A model generated the notes under the pieces. The model made no database searches, was not told where the DNA came from, and was given only the letters and a program-made list of their open reading frames with translations. DNA of 64,000 nt from a virus. Taxonomy: Duplodnaviria > Heunggongvirae > Uroviricota > Caudoviricetes. A program made the position numbers and the translations under genes. Numbering within the stretch: the stretch's first letter is position 1; each line of letters opens with the position of its first letter. The stretch covers positions 317,413 to 381,412 of IMG/VR virus record IMGVR_UViG_3300014205_000001; one strand, given 5' to 3'. Of this stretch, positions 2,387 to 53,000 are shown piece by piece.

Positions 2387-3130
2387 ATGAAAAACAAAAA
2401 ATTCAACAAGATCACAAAAACGATCATTGCTGATTTACTGTCGTGGTCGTCAAAAGCAAATGGCATTCCTAAACAGGAAATCATTGATGAGATTTTTAAA
2501 GGTCTCACACGCGGTTCTTTAAAGAAAAAAGGTGAAGAAGTTACAGAACACACTTACATCGATAAAGGCAATGAATCTCGCTTTACTGTCGACTTTGCCG
2601 CAAAAACAATTAATAACGATGATAAAATTCTTTATGAATTTATCATTCCAGGTGAACCTGTAAAAACACCGAAAGCTGATAAAGCACCTAAAGCTGATAA
2701 AGCACCTAAAGCTGATAAAGCTGCTAAAACATCCAAAACTGAACCCGTAATTGCAACCAAAACAAAATCCACAAAAAGTATGGAACAACAACGCCAGGAC
2801 GTAAAAGACTTCCTTGATACCAATTTCGCAATTGAATTTTCCGAAGAAGGAAAAATTAAAAAATTCCAATTGCTGAACAAAGAAGATAAACAAATGGGAG
2901 TTGATATGATTCTGGGTGGAATTATCCTTTGCGTGATCAATAACGTAAAAGATATTGACGATCCGAACAAAGCAGTTCGTTTGTGGCTGAAAGGTTTACA
3001 ATCACCTGAACCGGTAACTGCAACTGCGACTGCGACACCAGCAGCTGATGTAACTGAAAAATCACCTTCACCACGTAAAGTCGCCGAAGGTGTTGCAGCA
3101 AAGAAAAAAGCTAAACGCAGTAAAAAATAA
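2387..3130 (+). CDS. Hypothetical Lys-rich early protein with KADKAP repeats
   Basis: 247-aa ORF after a promoter motif; low-complexity PKADKA repeats and a basic C-terminus. Confidence 0.75.
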   Translation: MKNKKFNKITKTIIADLLSWSSKANGIPKQEIIDEIFKGLTRGSLKKKGEEVTEHTYIDKGNESRFTVDFAAKTINNDDKILYEFIIPGEPVKTPKADKAPKADKAPKADKAAKTSKTEPVIATKTKSTKSMEQQRQDVKDFLDTNFAIEFSEEGKIKKFQLLNKEDKQMGVDMILGGIILCVINNVKDIDDPNKAVRLWLKGLQSPEPVTATATATPAADVTEKSPSPRKVAEGVAAKKKAKRSKK

Positions 3131-38258: not shown

Positions 38259-39536
38259 ATGAAAGCAGTACAAGTAGTAAAAATTAGTAAATTAATTCCA
38301 ATTTACAAAGAAGGCGTCGAAGCCAATTCCATTAATTTAGTAAACTTTGAGTTTCTTAATGGTGACGAATGTGGTTACAATGTAATCGCACAAAAAGGTT
38401 TATACGAATTAGGTGATAAAGCAATTTACATCATGCCTGATTTCTGTTTAAGTGAAATTTCATTGTTTGAATCTTTCACTGCACCCAATGGTGAACCTAA
38501 TAAAACGAAATTAGGTAAAATGAATCGTATTCGTGCCATCAAATTTAATTTTCAACAAGAAAATTCATCTGAACCTATTTTTAGTTTTGGTGTCTTATTA
38601 CCTATCACTGAAGTTAAATCTTATTTAGGTGATGCGTACGATGAAGAAACATTAACTGATACTTTAGGTATTACAAAATACGAAGAACCTGAAACTGCTG
38701 GTAGCGGTCAAACAAAAGGTGGACTACCTTCATTTTTATATTCTACTGACGAAACAAATCAAGAAACATTAAAATCACATATTAAAAAATTATGTGATGG
38801 CACAACTGAAATGGGATTTACGATTAAACGTGACGGATCATCTTTCACAACCTATTTCAGAAAAGATGAAAATGGTAATTGGTATCATGGTATTTGTTCA
38901 CGTAATCAAGAAAAGAAAACTGAACAATATTACGTTTCCAAATATGTGGATTCTCATAAAAATGAATACACTAAGTACATGGACCCTGAAACAAAAGAAA
39001 TGGGTTGGAAATGTCATGTCAATAATCATTTTGTAAATGAACGTGATATTTTAAATACAGATTGGAAACAAGTAACTACGGAAGTAAAAGATTCTTGGGT
39101 AGAACTTGCCAATAAATCTGGATTAATTGAACAAGGTATGGCATATTGCCAAGCCAATGATATTCAATTAGCATTCCGTGGTGAAATTTACGGACAAGGT
39201 TTAAAAGGTTCAGGTAATAAATCAAATCCGGACGCTGCCAAAAAACAAGGTTTGTATCTCTTTGGTGTAGATGATTTAAGTTCAGGATTTTCTGTAAGAA
39301 TAAACGATAGCAGTGAACATAATTTAAGTAAATTAGCTACACAATTTGGTATTGAATATTCAATTTCTGATTGGTATTTACCAACATCTTACGAAGACTT
39401 TTGTAATTTTTGTGAAAGTATTATTCAGGATGAAGCAAGTAAAGGCCGAATCATTGAAGGTGTAGTAGTAAGAACTCGTTATACAAACGAATTATCAACC
39501 AAGTACATGAATAAAGTGTACGACGCAAAAAAGTAA
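38259..39536 (+). CDS. RNA ligase, Rnl2/DRB0094-type
   Basis: N-terminal OB-like module (I.PI..AN.I...KG.Y..GD..IYI.PD), motif I KRDGSS, FRGEIYG, EGVVV, KYMN. Confidence 0.82.
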   Translation: MKAVQVVKISKLIPIYKEGVEANSINLVNFEFLNGDECGYNVIAQKGLYELGDKAIYIMPDFCLSEISLFESFTAPNGEPNKTKLGKMNRIRAIKFNFQQENSSEPIFSFGVLLPITEVKSYLGDAYDEETLTDTLGITKYEEPETAGSGQTKGGLPSFLYSTDETNQETLKSHIKKLCDGTTEMGFTIKRDGSSFTTYFRKDENGNWYHGICSRNQEKKTEQYYVSKYVDSHKNEYTKYMDPETKEMGWKCHVNNHFVNERDILNTDWKQVTTEVKDSWVELANKSGLIEQGMAYCQANDIQLAFRGEIYGQGLKGSGNKSNPDAAKKQGLYLFGVDDLSSGFSVRINDSSEHNLSKLATQFGIEYSISDWYLPTSYEDFCNFCESIIQDEASKGRIIEGVVVRTRYTNELSTKYMNKVYDAKK

Positions 39537-44777: not shown

Positions 44778-45102
44778 TTATCTTGATTTTACTTTTTTTT
44801 ATGTTTTTAATCACTGAGACTCCGTCACAAATACCTAATTCAATTGAAGTATTTGTACGTTCAATTACTTTACACCAAGTATTGTTGATATAAATATAAT
44901 TTCCTTTTTTAGTTTTCAGTTGTTCTTTCGTGAACACAAGATCACTTGTTGATAGTGTCTGTGCCAATTTATCACAATGTTGTTCTAAATCTTTTGTGAC
45001 ACCTTGCATACATTGTAATGCTTCACCTAATCGTTGTTCTTCAATTAAGCATTTAATATAGTCAACTTGCGTGATAAGTACTGTGTCGATGTTGTTGTTC
45101 AT
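44758..45102 (-). CDS. Hypothetical protein
   Basis: 114-aa ORF. Confidence 0.55.
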   Translation of the reverse strand: MNNNIDTVLITQVDYIKCLIEEQRLGEALQCMQGVTKDLEQHCDKLAQTLSTSDLVFTKEQLKTKKGNYIYINNTWCKVIERTNTSIELGICDGVSVIKNIKKSKIKINDISHA

Positions 45103-49364: not shown

Positions 49365-51047
49365 ATGTTTACATCTAAAAAATCAAAGTTATTTGACGTA
49401 CCGTCAAAAACAAAAAGTACATCTGGTACTTCAACATCAGCATTCGTCAACGGCGGAATGAAAAAAGCCGTAGAAACAACATCACTTAACGGTGCAGTGA
49501 AATATTCTTCAACAGGAAATGATTTCGTAGATCAATTTGGAAAATTAGGTACTTATAAAGCACCACGTGCTTATAATGATATCGCAAAAGACCAAACATT
49601 GTTATACAGTCAAAATAAAATGTTGACAGTTGCATTTACTCTTTACATTCGTATGATTACTCGTGTTACAGATATTTTCGGTAAGAAAACTACTGTTTCA
49701 CAAAAAGGTGCAGAATTAAAGCACGAAGGTATCATGCGTATGATTTGGTTACATACACAGGACCCAAAAACATTCAAGAAAAATATTACGCTGTTTACAG
49801 CAGTAGGTTCTTGGAAAGATATTATTACAATGTTACAATATGACCTTGTATATAATGGTTGGAAAGGTCGTGTCCTTGATTGGAAATTCTTAGGTGAATT
49901 TATCCTTGCGGGATTAAGTGATGCTACACAATCTGAATTGTTGAAGAAATATCTTCCACAAATTAAAGCAAATTCACAATGTAAAACTGTTGAAGCGCAA
50001 GCAGATAACATGATTGCAAAATGGATTTGTCAATTATTATTCGGTAATAAGTCTGAAGGTGAAAACTATAAGACTTATAAAGCTTATCGTAAATTAAAAT
50101 CAGGTGGTACTGCTCACGAATGGCAACAATTGATCTCTCAAGGTAAACACAACTTGATTGAATTTGAAAAAATTCACGGACGTGCATTGAATTTATTAGT
50201 TCGTTCAAAATATTTGAAAAACCAAGGTTTGACAGAGAAATTTGAAAAATGGATTACTAAACCAACGACTGAAGCAAAATTCACTGGATTCGTTCATGAA
50301 TTATTCTCTAAATTGCCACATTCGTTAACAGGTTTAAACAAAGGTGAACAAGCTACAATTAATAAACAATTTGAAACTTTAGTTGCAAAAGGTCGTGAAG
50401 GTGAAAAGGATTTAAATTCAACATTGATTGTTGTACGTGATACATCAGCTTCAATGGGTTCAAACTGTGCTGGAACACCAATGTCTTGCTACGATGTAGC
50501 GAAATCGTTGGCACTATATTTCTCATCGTTCTTAACAGGAAAATTTGAAAATGCATGGATTGAATTTAACAGTGATGCTAAAATGCATACTTGGAAAGGT
50601 GCTACTGCACTTGACAAATGGTACAACGATCATTCAAGTTACGTTGGAAGTACTAATTTCCAATCAGTAATTAACTTGTTCGGTACTATTAAAAAACAAG
50701 GAGTTGCTGAATCGGAATTTCCAACAGGAATCCTTTGTATCAGCGACAGTGAATTTAATCCTGCTCAATTAGGTCGTACTAACGTAGATGCTGCAAAAGC
50801 TAATTTACGTAAAGCTGGATTCTCACAGGAATACGTCGATAATTTTGTAATCGTTCTTTGGAATGTGGCTCACACTTCAGGAAAAGGTGGACAAAAATTC
50901 GAAACATACGGCGACGTACCAGGCGTTTACTATTTCTCAGGTTATTCTGCTGCAACAGTAGCATTTTTAACTTCAGAAATTAAAACTGCTTCCGAATTAT
51001 TTGAAGCAGCTATGAATCAGGAAGTTCTTTCAATGATCGAACTTTAA
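49365..51047 (+). CDS. TROVE/Ro60-like RNA-binding protein with C-terminal vWA domain (DUF2828-type)
   Basis: Helical N-terminal region (R...G.K..G...M.WL, GSWKD, LL.KYLP) and a C-terminal vWA with MIDAS DTSAS, A.SLALYF, F..DAKM, GSTNFQ.V, ISDSEF, V.WNV; 560 aa, similar in size to Ro60. Confidence 0.7.
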   Translation: MFTSKKSKLFDVPSKTKSTSGTSTSAFVNGGMKKAVETTSLNGAVKYSSTGNDFVDQFGKLGTYKAPRAYNDIAKDQTLLYSQNKMLTVAFTLYIRMITRVTDIFGKKTTVSQKGAELKHEGIMRMIWLHTQDPKTFKKNITLFTAVGSWKDIITMLQYDLVYNGWKGRVLDWKFLGEFILAGLSDATQSELLKKYLPQIKANSQCKTVEAQADNMIAKWICQLLFGNKSEGENYKTYKAYRKLKSGGTAHEWQQLISQGKHNLIEFEKIHGRALNLLVRSKYLKNQGLTEKFEKWITKPTTEAKFTGFVHELFSKLPHSLTGLNKGEQATINKQFETLVAKGREGEKDLNSTLIVVRDTSASMGSNCAGTPMSCYDVAKSLALYFSSFLTGKFENAWIEFNSDAKMHTWKGATALDKWYNDHSSYVGSTNFQSVINLFGTIKKQGVAESEFPTGILCISDSEFNPAQLGRTNVDAAKANLRKAGFSQEYVDNFVIVLWNVAHTSGKGGQKFETYGDVPGVYYFSGYSAATVAFLTSEIKTASELFEAAMNQEVLSMIEL

Positions 51048-51109
51048 GGGTTTATAAAAACGATATATATTTAACTATCTGAGGAATTGGATAGTTAAAT
51101 TCAGAAACA

Positions 51110-51122
51110 AGTTCTTTGACAT
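51110..51122 (+). promoter_or_regulatory. boxA-like antitermination element AGTTCTTTGACAT
   Basis: Resembles rrn boxA (E. coli TGCTCTTTAACA); sits in the leader of the ncRNA array after an ATATATATT motif and a hairpin at about 51070-51099. Confidence 0.55.
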
Positions 51123-51551
51123 CTTTATACAATAAAGCTGTTTAAATTTAATGAAACAAATGTAAAATATTCAAGGATATTTACAAGAGCAACTAGGACG
51201 TAAGTAGTGTCGAGCGAAAACGTGATAAACCTATAGCTATCATTAAAAATATTAGTGGAATAAAACATAACAGAAATGCATGTAAGACTAAATCTGTTGT
51301 ACTATAATGTTTTATTCAAAGATGAATAACAGCAATGTTCGTAAATAATGGTCCTAAGGTAGTTCAGGAACGAAAGTTCACAACGATATACTTAGTCTAA
51401 TACTTCATTTACCTTTGCATTAGGTATATAAGGAAAAACTACAGTGCCCAGTGTCGTACAGCAATAAACTTCTTCGATTCGTGCCTTTGAAGCACAAATC
51501 TTTTATTCTCCGATTTACGGCGACCGTACAAAAAGAATATTCATCTGCAAA

Positions 51552-51842
51552 AGGTTTTTCACAGCAATCTAAACGCATATCATTCAGAGATCGAAACAGG
51601 GGTTCGATTCCCTTCGCCAGCTCATTCCTACTTGTCCCTGAAGTAATTCAAACTTGTAGGTGCAAACAAAACAAATACTGTCCAATCGCAGGTAGCTATA
51701 GGCTAACGTTAAGTTATACCAATAGGAAAAGTCATGATTATTGAAATATAATTTCAAGGCTTGCTTAACCAAGATTCAGTCTTGCAGTATTATAAGCTGG
51801 TGTCGTCTAGTGGTTAGGACTCGTAGCAAAAAAAAGAAACCT
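51552..51842 (+). ncRNA. Array unit 4: circularly permuted tRNA-Glu-like domain
   Basis: T-arm AGGGG-TTCGATT-CCCTT (51598-51614) and acceptor 3' strand CGCCAGCT (51615-22) precede the acceptor 5' strand AGCTGGTG (51795-802) and D-arm GTCTAGTGGTTAGGAC (51805-20). Confidence 0.75.
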
Positions 51843-51846
51843 GAAA

Positions 51847-52007
51847 AGATTTACAACAGCAATTCAAACGTTAATTAAAACAGGCGTATGTGTCTATGGT
51901 CTTATAAGCCATAGTTTGGTTCGAATCCCACCTCCGGCACAAAAAATTACAACATGCCGGTGTATGCGAATTGGTCCAGCAGCCCGTAACAAAACAAACG
52001 TAAATCT
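51847..52007 (+). ncRNA. Array unit 5: circularly permuted tRNA-like domain
   Basis: Closing stem AGATTTAC/GTAAATCT; GGTTCGAAT at 51918; acceptor CCGGCA/TGCCGG (51934-39/51955-60) closed by a loop; D-arm TGCGAATTGGTCCAGCA. Confidence 0.72.
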
Positions 52008-52969
52008 GATAAATACTCTCACAGCAAATTAACTAAATTTTTATTGAAAAAAACCTCGCCCGGCGGAAGGCACGTTAAAGGGTTCGACTCCCTATGAGTA
52101 TTGATAAAGTTACATACAGCAAATTAAAAAAATTCAATTTTGGTTTGAAAAACAAGCGTAACTTGATAAAATAACAGCAAATTACTACGGTAAACAATTT
52201 CTCCTAAAAAGAAATCACATGGTTCAAACCCATAAATGTTATTTGATAAGAATACAATCAGCAACTAACGCAATACACTCTTAATGTAAAAAAGCAAACG
52301 TATTCTGATAAAATAGTACACAGCAATTATAAACTTCGTGACTAGTTAGGCTATATATGCACTATGCTAAAGTTAATATTTTAATATTGAAAGTTATGCG
52401 TCTTAGAACATTAGGTTGGAACTAATTATTCCTTAACTGGTTGGCAATCAGCCCGTACTCTAAGCCATTCAATAAGTAAATAGTATTAATTTCAGACGCG
52501 AACTCTTAAGAAGGCGTAAAGAATAATTAACTTTATGAGGGCCTTAAATACTATTTGAAAAATTTGTCTAACAGCAAAACAAAAATTTATCTGCCAAAAT
52601 CAAGATGGGTTTGGTTCGACTCCAAACGGTACGCGGGATGGCCGCAAAAATAGACAAATGATAAATGTACTTACAGCAAACTACAAAAAAAAACGTCCGA
52701 CTCAAAATCAGAAAATAGTTTAAAACAACAGTACATTGATAAAGTTACCAGCAGCAACATTAAAACGATATAAATAAACTCAATCTAAAACGTATAATGG
52801 TAACTTGGAACTTAAATGTTCACATGCTTAAAAGTCATCGTAACAGCAAACTTTACAAAAACTTCAATTATGTAAAACGACGAGTTGGGTTCGAATCCCG
52901 ACGCCAATGTGAAATCGGTAGCACGGTGCTGGAATAGATTTAAGATGACTTGGATATTCTTTATCACTT

Positions 52970-53000
52970 AAAATGCGATCTGTAAAAGGATCGCATTTTT
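52970..53000 (+). terminator. Intrinsic terminator ending the array transcript
   Basis: AAAATGCGATC / GATCGCATTTT. Confidence 0.85.

What the first reader, a model, noticed from the sequence alone, without database searches (positions are those of the whole stretch)
51258..52951. Array built from a conserved RNA structure rather than conserved sequence: variable closing stems, invariant ACAGCAA, GATAA linkers
Each unit has its own complementary stem. Examples: GAATAAAACAT/ATGTTTTATTC (51258-51317), AGATTTAC/GTAAATCT (51847-52007), AATACTC/GAGTATT (52012-52102), AAGTTAC/GTAACTT (52107-52164), AAATAAC/GTTATTT (52169-52244), AGAATAC/GTATTCT (52249-52306), AAATAGTA/TACTATTT (52311-52556), ATTTGTCTA/TAGACAAAT (52562-52659), AATGTACT/AGTACATT (52664-52737), AAGTTACCA/TGGTAACTT (52742-52806), AAGTCATC/GATGACTT (52832-52951). 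(A/T/G)CAGCAA follows the 5' strand within a few nt, and most of the later units abut through GATAA or GAAAA. This is internal covariation within a single genome. It implies selection on the structure and probably processing into individual RNAs at the linkers.
Basis: seen in the sequence. Interest (0 to 1): 0.88.

Follow-up and report, generated by a model that had tools for sequence, protein, structure and literature searches.

The report
Phage Ro60-like protein's small-RNA array
A 391-kb phage carries about a dozen tandem small-RNA genes that share one "handle" (a short closing helix followed by ACAGCAA) and display tRNA parts; they sit just after a gene for a Ro60-shaped RNA-binding protein, so they are probably its partner RNAs. 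I found no published description of this RNA family, whose handle matches the unexplained "Class I" RNAs of Dictyostelium.

Summary
Window 51320-52951 holds 12 head-to-tail units, preceded by one motif-less hairpin. Each unit is closed by its own 7-9 bp helix. CAGCAA starts at nt 11 in ten of the 12 units (nt 7 in U6, nt 13 in U12). Each unit ends ...CU/UU + G, and most are joined by AUA(A).

The array lies directly downstream, on the same strand, of a 560-aa DUF2828/DUF7788 protein. Its predicted fold matches Ro60/TROVE+vWA over its full length.

The same gene-plus-array pairing recurs in 21 IMG/VR phage loci, a Leptolyngbya phage, four close relatives and many MAG loci. These include about 30%-identical chromosomal genes of Saprospiraceae and Myxococcota.

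The closing helix covaries strongly. Cargo hairpins are enriched in T-loop-like and anticodon-loop-like 7-nt loops. U2 and U3 carry circularly permuted tRNA domains with YrlA-like topology.

No Rfam family is reached at gathering score. Units do match the Dictyostelium Class I RNA model below threshold (24.8 bits here, 39.3 in a relative, threshold 41.5).

Most likely these are Y-RNA-like partners of a Ro60-like protein. Protein binding, processing at the linkers and function are all untested.

This scan has already noted the same family in at least 32 other genomes. I found no published description.

The parts
49365..51047 (+). Gene for a 560-aa Ro60-like protein (Pfam DUF7788; relatives also carry DUF2828; PHROG 850 'RNA-binding protein').
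   Evidence: The AlphaFold model (pLDDT 80, pTM 0.78) matches Ro60/TROVE over its full length: 9kop at E 6e-9, phage phiLo Ro60 9l5y, Xenopus Ro60-RNA complexes 1yvp and 2i91, and Deinococcus Rsr 2nvo. The C-terminus is a vWA domain.
51073..51150 (+). Conserved intergenic block between the gene and the array. It may hold a promoter, but none is established.
   Evidence: It is 78.8% identical to L075-L077. The sigma-70 scan gives only weak hits, no more than in shuffles. No terminator lies between the gene and the array, so co-transcription is possible.
51258..51317 (+). Leading 11-bp hairpin (GAATAAAACAT/ATGTTTTATTC) with AACAGAAA in place of ACAGCAA. It is either a degenerate unit or a 5' hairpin.
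   Evidence: It is conserved in L074.
51320..51546 (+). U1: 227 nt, 9-bp helix AGATGAATA/TATTCATCT, CAGCAA at 51330, long cargo holding a second CAGCAA at 51459.
   Evidence: Orthologues are L074 5548-5774 and L075 5433-5650.
51552..51842 (+). U2: 291 nt with a handle plus a circularly permuted tRNA domain. The domain comprises the T arm (51598-51614), the acceptor 3' strand CGCCAGC (51615-51621), an insert of about 174 nt, the acceptor 5' strand GCTGGTG (51796-51802) and the D arm (51805-51820).
   Evidence: Read from the sequence. In the orthologues the acceptor helix covaries: CGCCAGC/GCTGGTG here, TGCCCGG/CCGGGTA in L074 and CGTCCGT/ACGGATG in L075, seven pairs in each. Rfam's tmRNA T-arm fragment hits 51597-51614.
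51847..52007 (+). U3: 161 nt with a handle, an anticodon-arm-like hairpin (51894-51914, loop CUUAUAA), a T loop (51918-51928), an acceptor-like hairpin (CCGGCA 51934-51939 / TGCCGG 51956-51961) and a D-arm-like stretch (51962-51983).
   Evidence: The acceptor helix covaries in the orthologues (CTTCCGCA/TGCGGAAG in L074, CTCCCGCA/TGCGGGAG in L075). The anticodon-like hairpin is absent from L074.
52012..52102 (+). U4: 91 nt with a handle, an A/U hairpin with a 7-nt loop, a G+C-rich hairpin, and a T arm (GGGUUCGACUCCC) abutting the 3' strand. It resembles a tRNA without a D arm.
   Evidence: Sequence-level orthologues occur in the Leptolyngbya phage (L001 3021-3114), L006, L010 and L074.
52107..52164 (+). 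U5: minimal 58-nt unit. Its cargo is the hairpin UUCAA-UUUUGGU-UUGAA.
   Evidence: R1 scores 62.1 bits. RF01414 scores 22 bits. Orthologues occur in many loci.
52169..52244 (+). U6: 76 nt, cloverleaf-like (closing helix, a 4-bp hairpin, a 6-bp hairpin with loop CCUAAAA, and a T-arm-like AUGG-UUCAAAC-CCAU). CAGCAA starts at nt 7.
   Evidence: R1 scores 19.6 bits.
52249..52306 (+). U7: minimal 58-nt unit. Its cargo is the hairpin UACA-CUCUUAA-UGUA, which is anticodon-loop-like.
   Evidence: R1 scores 50.1 bits. RF01414 scores 24.5 bits over the full model.
52311..52556 (+). U8: 246 nt, 8-bp helix AAAUAGUA/UACUAUUU, with about 230 nt of structured cargo that shows no recognisable tRNA feature.
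   Evidence: Orthologues are L074 6405-6640 and L075 6420-6661. The unit is missing from L076.
52562..52659 (+). U9: 98 nt, 9-bp helix, T arm UUUGG-UUCGACU-CCAAA and hairpin GCGG-GAUGG-CCGC.
52664..52737 (+). U10: 74 nt, 8-bp helix. Read by eye, a weak hairpin carries the loop CUCAAAA; the minimum-free-energy fold does not contain it.
   Evidence: R1 scores 37.3 bits. RF01414 scores 17.4 bits. Hairpin read; MFE fold.
52742..52806 (+). U11: 65 nt, 9-bp helix, GCAGCAA, unstructured A-rich cargo.
   Evidence: R1 scores 41.8 bits. Fold.
52832..52951 (+). U12: 120 nt, 8-bp helix AAGUCAUC/GAUGACUU, CAGCAA at nt 13, T arm UUGGG-UUCGAAU-CCCGA and a D-arm-like GUG-AAAUCGGUAG-CAC.
   Evidence: Orthologues occur in L074-L077.
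52970..52999 (+). Intrinsic terminator: a 12-bp stem followed by a T run, closing the array.

Best explanation
The region is a cluster of about 12 small non-coding RNA genes. It may be transcribed together with the upstream gene, or from just behind it, and it ends at the terminator at 52970-52999.

Each RNA has a constant 'handle' and a variable 'cargo':
- Handle: 5'-A-G-N5-7 pairs with N5-7-C-U. CAGCAA begins at nt 11. An A-rich strand (AAAAACAA-like) lies opposite, and an unpaired G follows the helix.
- Cargo: nothing, an anticodon-arm-like or T-arm-like hairpin, a cloverleaf, a circularly permuted tRNA domain, or about 230 nt of other structure.

The handle is most likely the binding site for the Ro60-like ring protein encoded at 49365-51047. 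That would make the RNAs functional analogues of Y RNAs.

The tRNA-like cargo would then bring the particle together with host enzymes that act on tRNA, or divert those enzymes. Candidates are anticodon nucleases, RNase P/Z, the CCA-adding enzyme, modification enzymes, PNPase and RNA ligase. This would serve the phage during tRNA-directed host defence or RNA repair.

What is shown: the anatomy, the covariation, the conserved gene-RNA synteny, the Ro60-like fold and the tRNA-like cargo.

What is inferred: protein binding, cutting at the G-AUA-A linkers, and the biological role.
For: 1. Fold. The protein model matches Ro60/TROVE+vWA end to end; its best hits are Ro60 structures, some solved with RNA. 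One Atlas cluster mixes TROVE, DUF2828 and DUF7788 annotations.

2. Synteny.
- Same-strand CAGCAA-unit clusters lie directly beside the gene in L001-L015 and L021. They lie downstream in 12 of these loci and upstream in 4.
- The four close relatives L074-L077 have the same arrangement.
- Model R1 hits beside the gene in MAG loci, down to about 30% protein identity in Saprospiraceae, Bacteroidota and Planctomycetota. One of these lies on an 8-Mb chromosome.

3. The array is unique in the 391-kb genome.

4. The helices covary.

5. Long units of relatives match the tRNA-like part of the YrlA model at 31-42 bits, E 6e-6 to 6e-3. One unit in L012 encloses a complete tRNA. U2 and U3 here have the same permuted topology, with covarying acceptor helices.

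6. Cargo hairpins. There are 65 seven-nt loops against 8.1 +/- 2.0 in shuffles. Of these, 35 carry the Y-U...R signature against 0.4 in shuffles. They split into T-loop (UUCGAAU) and anticodon-loop (CUNNNAA) types.

7. In nine related loci the start of the protein's own mRNA folds into a handle look-alike (AG-AUG-UUY..ACAGCAA..ACAUCU-G). This is as expected for an operator bound by the protein.

8. An RNA ligase gene (PHROG 968, E 8e-35) lies 10 kb upstream.

9. By analogy, bacterial and phage Ro60 bind neighbouring Y RNAs that mimic tRNA (PMC4201824, PMC12135203).
Against:
- The protein does not hit Pfam TROVE. It is only 11-16% identical to Ro60 structures, with TM-scores of 0.34-0.50.
- The canonical Ro60-binding motif of bacterial Y RNAs (GNCGAAN0-1G / CGAA) is not in the handle.
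- The window's own long units get no YrlA hit, nor do those of its closest relatives.
- Gene adjacency does not prove a physical complex.
- The decoy or recruitment role is an inference from cargo shape alone.
- The cargo anticodon-like stems are not copies of the phage's own 34 tRNAs.
Confidence: 0.72

Rival explanations
1. The units are stand-alone tRNA mimics or decoys, for example baits for host anticodon nucleases or tRNA-modifying enzymes, and act without the Ro60-like protein. Under this reading the handle is a processing or stability element, and the gene adjacency reflects co-regulation only.
For: Cargo is enriched in anticodon-loop-like and T-loop-like hairpins. The closing helix is 7 bp in about half of the window's units, like an acceptor stem, and is followed by one unpaired G in the discriminator position. 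T arms abut the 3' strand in U4-type units, as in tRNA.
Against: The handle, not the cargo, is what is conserved next to the gene from phages to bacterial chromosomes. Units with no structured cargo exist, such as U11. The gene's own 5' end imitates the handle in several lineages. Both points are hard to explain without protein recognition.
Confidence: 0.12
2. The region is a decayed or scrambled tRNA island. Under this reading it holds pseudo-tRNAs and tRNA fragments left by recombination, with no function of its own.
For: T arms, D arms and acceptor strands occur in broken or permuted order. ARAGORN calls no tRNA here. The phage has 34 tRNA genes elsewhere.
Against: The invariant ACAGCAA sits at a fixed register. 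The helices covary. The unit order is collinear in relatives at 76-82% protein identity. The same design occurs in unrelated phages and bacteria.
Confidence: 0.04
3. The elements act at the DNA level. They would be hairpin-forming recombination sites (attC-like), miniature mobile elements or replication signals.
For: There are many abutting inverted repeats of variable sequence. Units are gained and lost between close relatives: L076 lacks three units.
Against: The orientation is strictly the same as the gene's, and a + strand terminator closes the array. T-loop and tRNA matches are on the + strand only. Among helices with a single non-Watson-Crick position, G-U outnumbers A-C by 10 to 4. No integrase or transposase lies beside the array.
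Confidence: 0.03
4. The region is a long structured 3' UTR or cis-acting stabiliser of the Ro60-like mRNA, not a set of trans-acting RNAs.
For: No terminator lies between the gene and the array, and no convincing promoter was found.
Against: In four loci the array lies upstream of the gene. In bacteria each unit has its own outer helix and spacing. The modular cargo with tRNA domains fits discrete RNAs better.
Confidence: 0.06

Closest known systems
Ro60 (Rsr/TROVE) with Y RNAs, especially bacterial YrlA tRNA mimics (Rfam RF02553; Chen et al. 2014, PMC4201824) and Thermus phage phiLo Ro60 with Yrl1/Yrl2 (PMC12135203)
   Same: - The protein is ring-shaped, with HEAT repeats plus a vWA domain.
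- The small RNAs are encoded next to its gene.
- The RNA 5' and 3' ends pair to form the protein-proximal stem.
- Some RNAs carry a permuted tRNA-like domain in the order T arm, acceptor, D arm. Relatives' units hit model positions 23-86 of YrlA.
- Such systems occur in phages.
   Different: - The protein belongs to DUF2828/DUF7788, not Pfam TROVE, and is 11-16% identical to Ro60 structures.
- The RNA motif is ACAGCAA beside a short 7-9 bp helix, not the GNCGAA/CGAA bulge in a long stem.
- There are up to 12-13 units in tandem instead of 1-4.
- Many units are only 52-70 nt and have no tRNA domain.
- No unit reaches the YrlA gathering score.
Dictyostelium Class I RNAs (Rfam RF01414; Kjellin et al. 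2021, PMC7919456)
   Same: - In the units that begin AG (6 of the 12 here, 124 of 214 overall) the second base G opens a 6-8 bp helix formed with the 3' end; the Class I 5' G is invariant.
- CAGCAA begins at nt 11. Dictyostelium has GaUcuCCUUA-CAGCAA, and many phage units read CUUACAGCAA.
- An A-rich AAAAAC-like strand lies before the 3' helix strand.
- The 3' end reads ...CUG in those same AG units; the other window units end UUG.
- Length is about 55-65 nt, with a variable interior.
- The Rfam model picks out these units and nothing else in the loci. Scores are 17-25 bits here, and reach 39.3 bits (E 5e-4) in L001.
   Different: - All scores are below the 41.5-bit gathering threshold.
- The CCUU part of the 11-nt motif is not conserved here.
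- These are phage and bacterial tandem genes without the DUSE promoter.
- Long units carry tRNA domains.
- The known Class I binder is the RRM protein Rnp1A/CIBP. No Ro60-like partner is reported.
- Class I RNAs are stated to be unique to Dictyostelia.
tRNA genes and phage tRNA islands
   Same: - The closing helix is 7 bp in about half of the window's units, followed by one unpaired base.
- T arms read GGUUCGAnUCC.
- Seven-nt loops resemble anticodon loops.
- The genes are arranged in tandem with short spacers.
   Different: - ARAGORN and the Rfam tRNA model find none in the array.
- The D-arm position is occupied by ACAGCAA.
- Many units are too short to be tRNAs, or are permuted.

Membership tests
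Dictyostelium Class I RNA (RF01414) | Score at or above Rfam's gathering threshold (41.5 bits) | tested here: not met
   The window's units score 24.8, 24.5, 22 and 17.4 bits. The best relative scores 39.3 bits at E 5e-4.
Dictyostelium Class I RNA (RF01414) | Short helix joining the 5' and 3' ends, with a conserved 5' G | tested here: met
   The helices are 7-9 bp. 124 of 214 units start AG, so that G opens a helix ending C-U-G.
Dictyostelium Class I RNA (RF01414) | 11-nt motif CCUUACAGCAA directly after the 5' strand | tested here: inconclusive
   CAGCAA is invariant, the preceding A is usual, and the register is the same (nt 11). The CCUU part is variable; some units have CUUA.
Dictyostelium Class I RNA (RF01414) | Single genes with an upstream DUSE promoter in dictyostelids; RNAs of 42-65 nt | tested here: not met
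   These are tandem units in a phage. Unit lengths in the window range from 58 to 291 nt.
YrlA / bacterial Y RNA (RF02553) | Score at or above Rfam's gathering threshold (69 bits) | tested here: not met
   There is no hit in the window or in its closest relatives. Other loci give 31-42 bits on model positions 23-86 only.
YrlA / bacterial Y RNA (RF02553) | Encoded beside a Ro60 orthologue | tested here: inconclusive
   The neighbour has a Ro60-like fold but belongs to DUF2828/DUF7788, and it gives no Pfam TROVE hit.
YrlA / bacterial Y RNA (RF02553) | GNCGAAN0-1G (CGAA) motif in the protein-binding stem or bulge | tested here: not met
   The handle carries ACAGCAA. Only U2 has a CGAA element (GAUCGAAAC at 51588-51596, GGUCGAAAC in L074), and it lies inside the cargo.
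YrlA / bacterial Y RNA (RF02553) | Permuted tRNA-like domain: T arm, closed acceptor helix, D arm | tested here: met
   U2 and U3 have this order, with acceptor helices that covary in three orthologues. The other units lack it.
Ro60/TROVE protein | HEAT-repeat ring plus C-terminal vWA domain | tested here: met
   Foldseek gives full-length matches to 9kop, 9l5y, 1yvp, 2i91 and 2nvo at E 6e-9 to 2e-5, all with probability 1.00. vWA structures match residues of about 350-550.
Ro60/TROVE protein | Sequence membership (Pfam PF05731 TROVE) | tested here: not met
   Only PF25043 is hit. phmmer against PDB sequences finds nothing.
Ro60/TROVE protein | Binds its neighbouring small RNAs | not testable with these tools
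   This needs EMSA, RIP or a structure. No RNA-protein docking tool was available.
tRNA | Cloverleaf recognised by ARAGORN or Rfam RF00005 | tested here: not met
   There are 0 tRNAs in the window and no RF00005 hit in the array at E up to 10. The genome's 34 tRNAs lie elsewhere.

The most novel reading that the evidence does not exclude
The stem-ACAGCAA handle defines one RNA family that partners DUF2828/DUF7788 Ro60-like proteins across phages, bacteria and eukaryotes. Under this reading the Class I RNAs of Dictyostelium, thought unique to social amoebae and of unknown mechanism, are its eukaryotic members.

They would then be Y-RNA-like partners of a Ro60-like protein in the amoeba. [quoted passage not shown]

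In phages the same scaffold would be used to present tRNA parts to host tRNA-directed enzymes.
Probability: 0.25. Interest if true: 0.9.

Novelty: new variant of a known kind. Interest (0 to 1): 0.78.

Why it matters
Ro60-Y RNA particles are a classic but still poorly understood RNA-surveillance system. Here a second, very large protein branch (over 2,100 homologues found in one search) turns out to travel with its own RNA family, which has not been described in the papers I could search.

The design is modular: one constant handle and exchangeable tRNA-like cargo.

If the protein binds the handle, three things follow:
- It gives a simple, testable model for how phages present tRNA mimics to host enzymes. 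This is relevant to tRNA-targeting anti-phage defence and to RNA repair.
- It provides a natural scaffold for displaying RNA modules.
- It offers a concrete hypothesis for the long-unexplained Class I RNAs of Dictyostelium.

Tried and rejected
- Canonical tRNA or tmRNA. ARAGORN finds none in the window.
- Any Rfam family at gathering score. None is reached. No self-cleaving ribozyme family appears in the array even at E up to 10.
- YrlA membership for this window's long units. There is no hit here or in the closest relatives, so the YrlA-like claim rests on topology and covariation only.
- Sequence similarity of the protein to solved structures. phmmer finds none; only the fold comparison shows Ro60.
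- Annotated phage genomes. Only one weak blastn match was found, to Leptolyngbya phage Lbo-JY46, where the array is unannotated.
- Promoter. The sigma-70 scan gives no more sites than shuffles, so the transcription start is unknown.
- Cargo anticodon-like hairpins as copies of the phage's own tRNAs. The stems differ, so this is rejected.
- Strand test by G-U versus A-C. The count is 10 to 4, which is suggestive but weak on its own.
- Whether Dictyostelium encodes a DUF2828 protein, or what DDB_G0281243 is. This could not be established: AlphaFold DB cluster rows hide organisms, the Atlas rows show viral clusters only, Avesson 2011 is not held, and the literature searches were empty.
- Complex prediction was not used, because it does not model RNA.
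Full report
**What is there**

Window 51050-53000 is non-coding. It follows, on the same strand, a 560-aa ORF at 49365-51047. ARAGORN finds no tRNA or tmRNA in the window, and Rfam finds nothing at gathering score.

CAGCAA occurs 13 times in 51330-52844, against 28 times in the other 62 kb.

Anchoring on each CAGCAA shows 12 abutting units, U1-U12, spanning 51320-52951.
- Each unit is closed by its own 7-9 bp helix.
- The 5' strand usually begins AG or AA, and the 3' strand usually ends CU or UU.
- One unpaired G follows the helix. Most neighbours are then joined by AUA.
- CAGCAA starts at nt 11 of the unit in ten of the twelve.

Unconstrained folding keeps every closing helix. A leading hairpin at 51258-51317 lacks the motif. 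A strong intrinsic terminator at 52970-52999 closes the array, and no convincing promoter was found.

The window is part of a complete 391,061-bp phage genome with terminal repeats. A covariance model of the units (R1) and a pattern search both find this locus only. The phage's 34 tRNA genes lie elsewhere.

**Is it more than chance?**

On 50 short units from 21 sources (the window and 20 loci), 96.7% of helix cells pair.
- Shuffles give 63.8%, and sliding the partner gives 37-44%.
- There are 133 double-sided changes, against 42.7 in shuffles.

Those units were picked for having a stem, so this figure is inflated. The better evidence comes from orthologues.

Four contigs whose protein is 76-82% identical have collinear arrays of 8-12 units.
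- The helices differ by compensatory pairs. Examples are AATACTC/GAGTATT versus AATAGAC/GTCTATT, and AGAATAC/GTATTCT versus AGAATCC/GGATTCT.
- One contig has lost three units.

**The neighbour gene**

The ORF hits PHROG 850 ('RNA-binding protein') and Pfam DUF7788. Relatives also carry DUF2828, and one search gave more than 2,100 homologues, mostly on phage contigs.

It has no sequence match to solved structures. An AlphaFold model (pLDDT 80, pTM 0.78) matches Ro60/TROVE proteins over their whole length.
- The hits are the phiLo phage Ro60 (9kop, 9l5y), Xenopus Ro60 bound to RNA (1yvp, 2i91) and Deinococcus Rsr (2nvo).
- The C-terminus is a vWA domain.
- One Atlas cluster mixes TROVE, DUF2828 and DUF7788 labels.

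**Conserved pairing**

In 21 IMG/VR loci and Leptolyngbya phage Lbo-JY46, protein identity to the query runs from 72% down to 37%. Same-strand clusters of such units lie directly beside the gene in L001-L015 and L021. They lie downstream in 12 of these loci and upstream in four.

A scan of prokaryotic genomes gave 46 more loci. R1 hits beside the gene in phage-like MAG contigs. It also hits next to about 30%-identical genes of Saprospiraceae, Bacteroidota and Planctomycetota, one of them on an 8-Mb chromosome.

In those bacteria CAGCAA starts at nt 10. Each unit sits inside an extra outer helix of the form NNNNN-GAA-AG...CUG-U-NNNNN, which resembles the longer stem of classical Y RNAs.

**The cargo**

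In 162 units, hairpins with 7-nt loops number 65, against 8.1 +/- 2.0 in shuffles. Thirty-five carry the Y-U...R signature, against 0.4 in shuffles. They are either T-loop-like (UUCGAAU) or anticodon-loop-like (CUNNNAA).

In relatives, long units match the tRNA-like part of Rfam's YrlA model at 31-42 bits, E 6e-6 to 6e-3. One unit encloses a whole tRNA.

The window's own long units get no YrlA hit. U2 and U3 nevertheless have the YrlA order of parts:
- The order is handle, T arm, acceptor 3' strand, loop or insert, acceptor 5' strand, D arm, handle.
- Their acceptor helices covary among three orthologues. In U2 these read CGCCAGC/GCTGGTG, TGCCCGG/CCGGGTA and CGTCCGT/ACGGATG.
- U2 here carries an extra insert of about 125 nt.

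U4-type units look like tRNAs whose D arm is replaced by ACAGCAA. U8 carries about 230 nt with no tRNA feature.

**Resemblance to Dictyostelium Class I RNAs**

Rfam's RF01414 model picks out these units and nothing else.
- Scores are 24.8, 24.5, 22 and 17.4 bits here.
- Scores reach 39.3 bits (E 5e-4) in relatives, against a threshold of 41.5.

In the units that begin AG, the shared features are a G opening a short end-to-end helix, CAGCAA from nt 11, an A-rich 3' strand, a ...CUG end and a length of about 60 nt. Half of the window's units begin AA or AU and end UUG instead.

Kjellin et al. (PMC7919456) describe exactly these features and report the class as unique to Dictyostelia. Membership is not met: the scores are below threshold, the CCUU part is not conserved, there is no DUSE promoter, and the genes are tandem phage genes.

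Whether the likeness reflects common descent, a homologous protein partner or convergence is open. The preprint version lists four proteins pulled down with DdR-21: GuaB, NdkC, CIBP and DDB_G0281243, the last of unknown function. I could not classify DDB_G0281243.

**Mechanism**

The most likely reading is that the handle is the docking site of the Ro60-like ring. The RNAs would then be Y-RNA analogues, and their tRNA-like cargo would engage host tRNA-directed enzymes.

An extra hint comes from nine related loci. There the start of the protein's own mRNA forms a handle look-alike that buries the AUG (AG-AUG-UUY-..ACAGCAA..-ACAUCU-G). R1 scores four of these sites. This is what an autoregulatory operator would look like. 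The window's own gene lacks it.

An RNA ligase gene lies 10 kb upstream.

Published Ro60 systems, including a phage one, bind adjacent Y RNAs and recruit PNPase (PMC4201824, PMC12135203). Those RNAs use a CGAA motif, not ACAGCAA.

Binding, processing at the linkers and biological role all remain inferences.

**Prior notes**

After I had formed this reading, the scan's notebook showed the same family reported in at least 32 other genomes, with the same interpretation.

Literature searches gave no description of the RNA family or of DUF2828 partners.

**Verdict**

- The array is best seen as a new variant of the Ro60-Y RNA theme.

Noticed in passing
L010:3999-4054, L011:26-75, L028:2999-3055, L030:2999-3070; also the gene starts of L002, L004, L008, L031 and L034: The 5' end of the Ro60-like gene itself folds like a unit: AG-AUG-UUY, then (A)CAGCAA or a near variant, then ACAUCU-G 50-74 nt downstream, with the start codon inside the helix. 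R1 scores L028 at 39 bits. This may be an autoregulatory operator, and it may explain the invariant MF..K N-terminus. The window's own gene (49365) lacks it.
   Followed up: partly
L065:4545-4593, L073:4598-4646, L064:4718-5002, L053:4590-4807 and other MAG loci: Chromosomal DUF2828-like genes of Saprospiraceae, Bacteroidota and Planctomycetota (about 30% identity) are followed by one to several single units. In these, CAGCAA starts at nt 10 and an additional outer helix flanks the unit (NNNNN-GAA-AG...CUG-U-NNNNN).
   Followed up: partly
L012:2935-3050: One unit (AGGTATC/GATACCT plus CAGCAA) encloses a complete canonical tRNA (Rfam tRNA 53.4 bits at 2961-3033).
   Followed up: no
window 38259-39536 (+): A 425-aa RNA ligase (PHROG 968, E 8e-35; weak Pfam RNA_lig_T4_1) lies about 10 kb upstream of the Ro60-like gene. 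This fits an RNA-repair theme.
   Followed up: partly
window 51588-51596; L074 and L075 U2 orthologues: U2 keeps a CGAA element (GAUCGAAAC here, GGUCGAAAC or GGUCGAAAU in the relatives) just 5' of its T arm. It recalls the GNCGAA motif of canonical YrlA, so this unit may combine both kinds of motif.
   Followed up: no
window 51622-51795 versus L074:5780-5954 and L075:5655-5819; L076 versus L075 and L077: The array turns over quickly. U2 has about 125 extra nt in this phage. The anticodon-like hairpin of U3 is absent in L074, and U3 is 276 nt in L075. L076 lacks three whole units. The order of the U4-type and U5-type units is swapped relative to the relatives.
   Followed up: partly
own genome C1:25123-25299, 44910-44998, 200209-200293, 234025-234112 (outside the window): Several of the phage's 34 tRNAs that are not class II (Thr, Gln, Lys, Glu) are 81-89 nt long, with enlarged variable regions. 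None contains CAGCAA.
   Followed up: no
own genome C1:278397-278661 (outside the window): There is one further handle-like match elsewhere in the genome: AGCTTTAAA-CAGCAA ... TTTAAAGCT-G, a 9-bp helix spanning 265 nt. It may be chance.
   Followed up: no
window 52311-52556: U8 carries about 230 nt of structured cargo with no tRNA feature and no Rfam match. It is conserved in L074, L075 and L077.
   Followed up: partly
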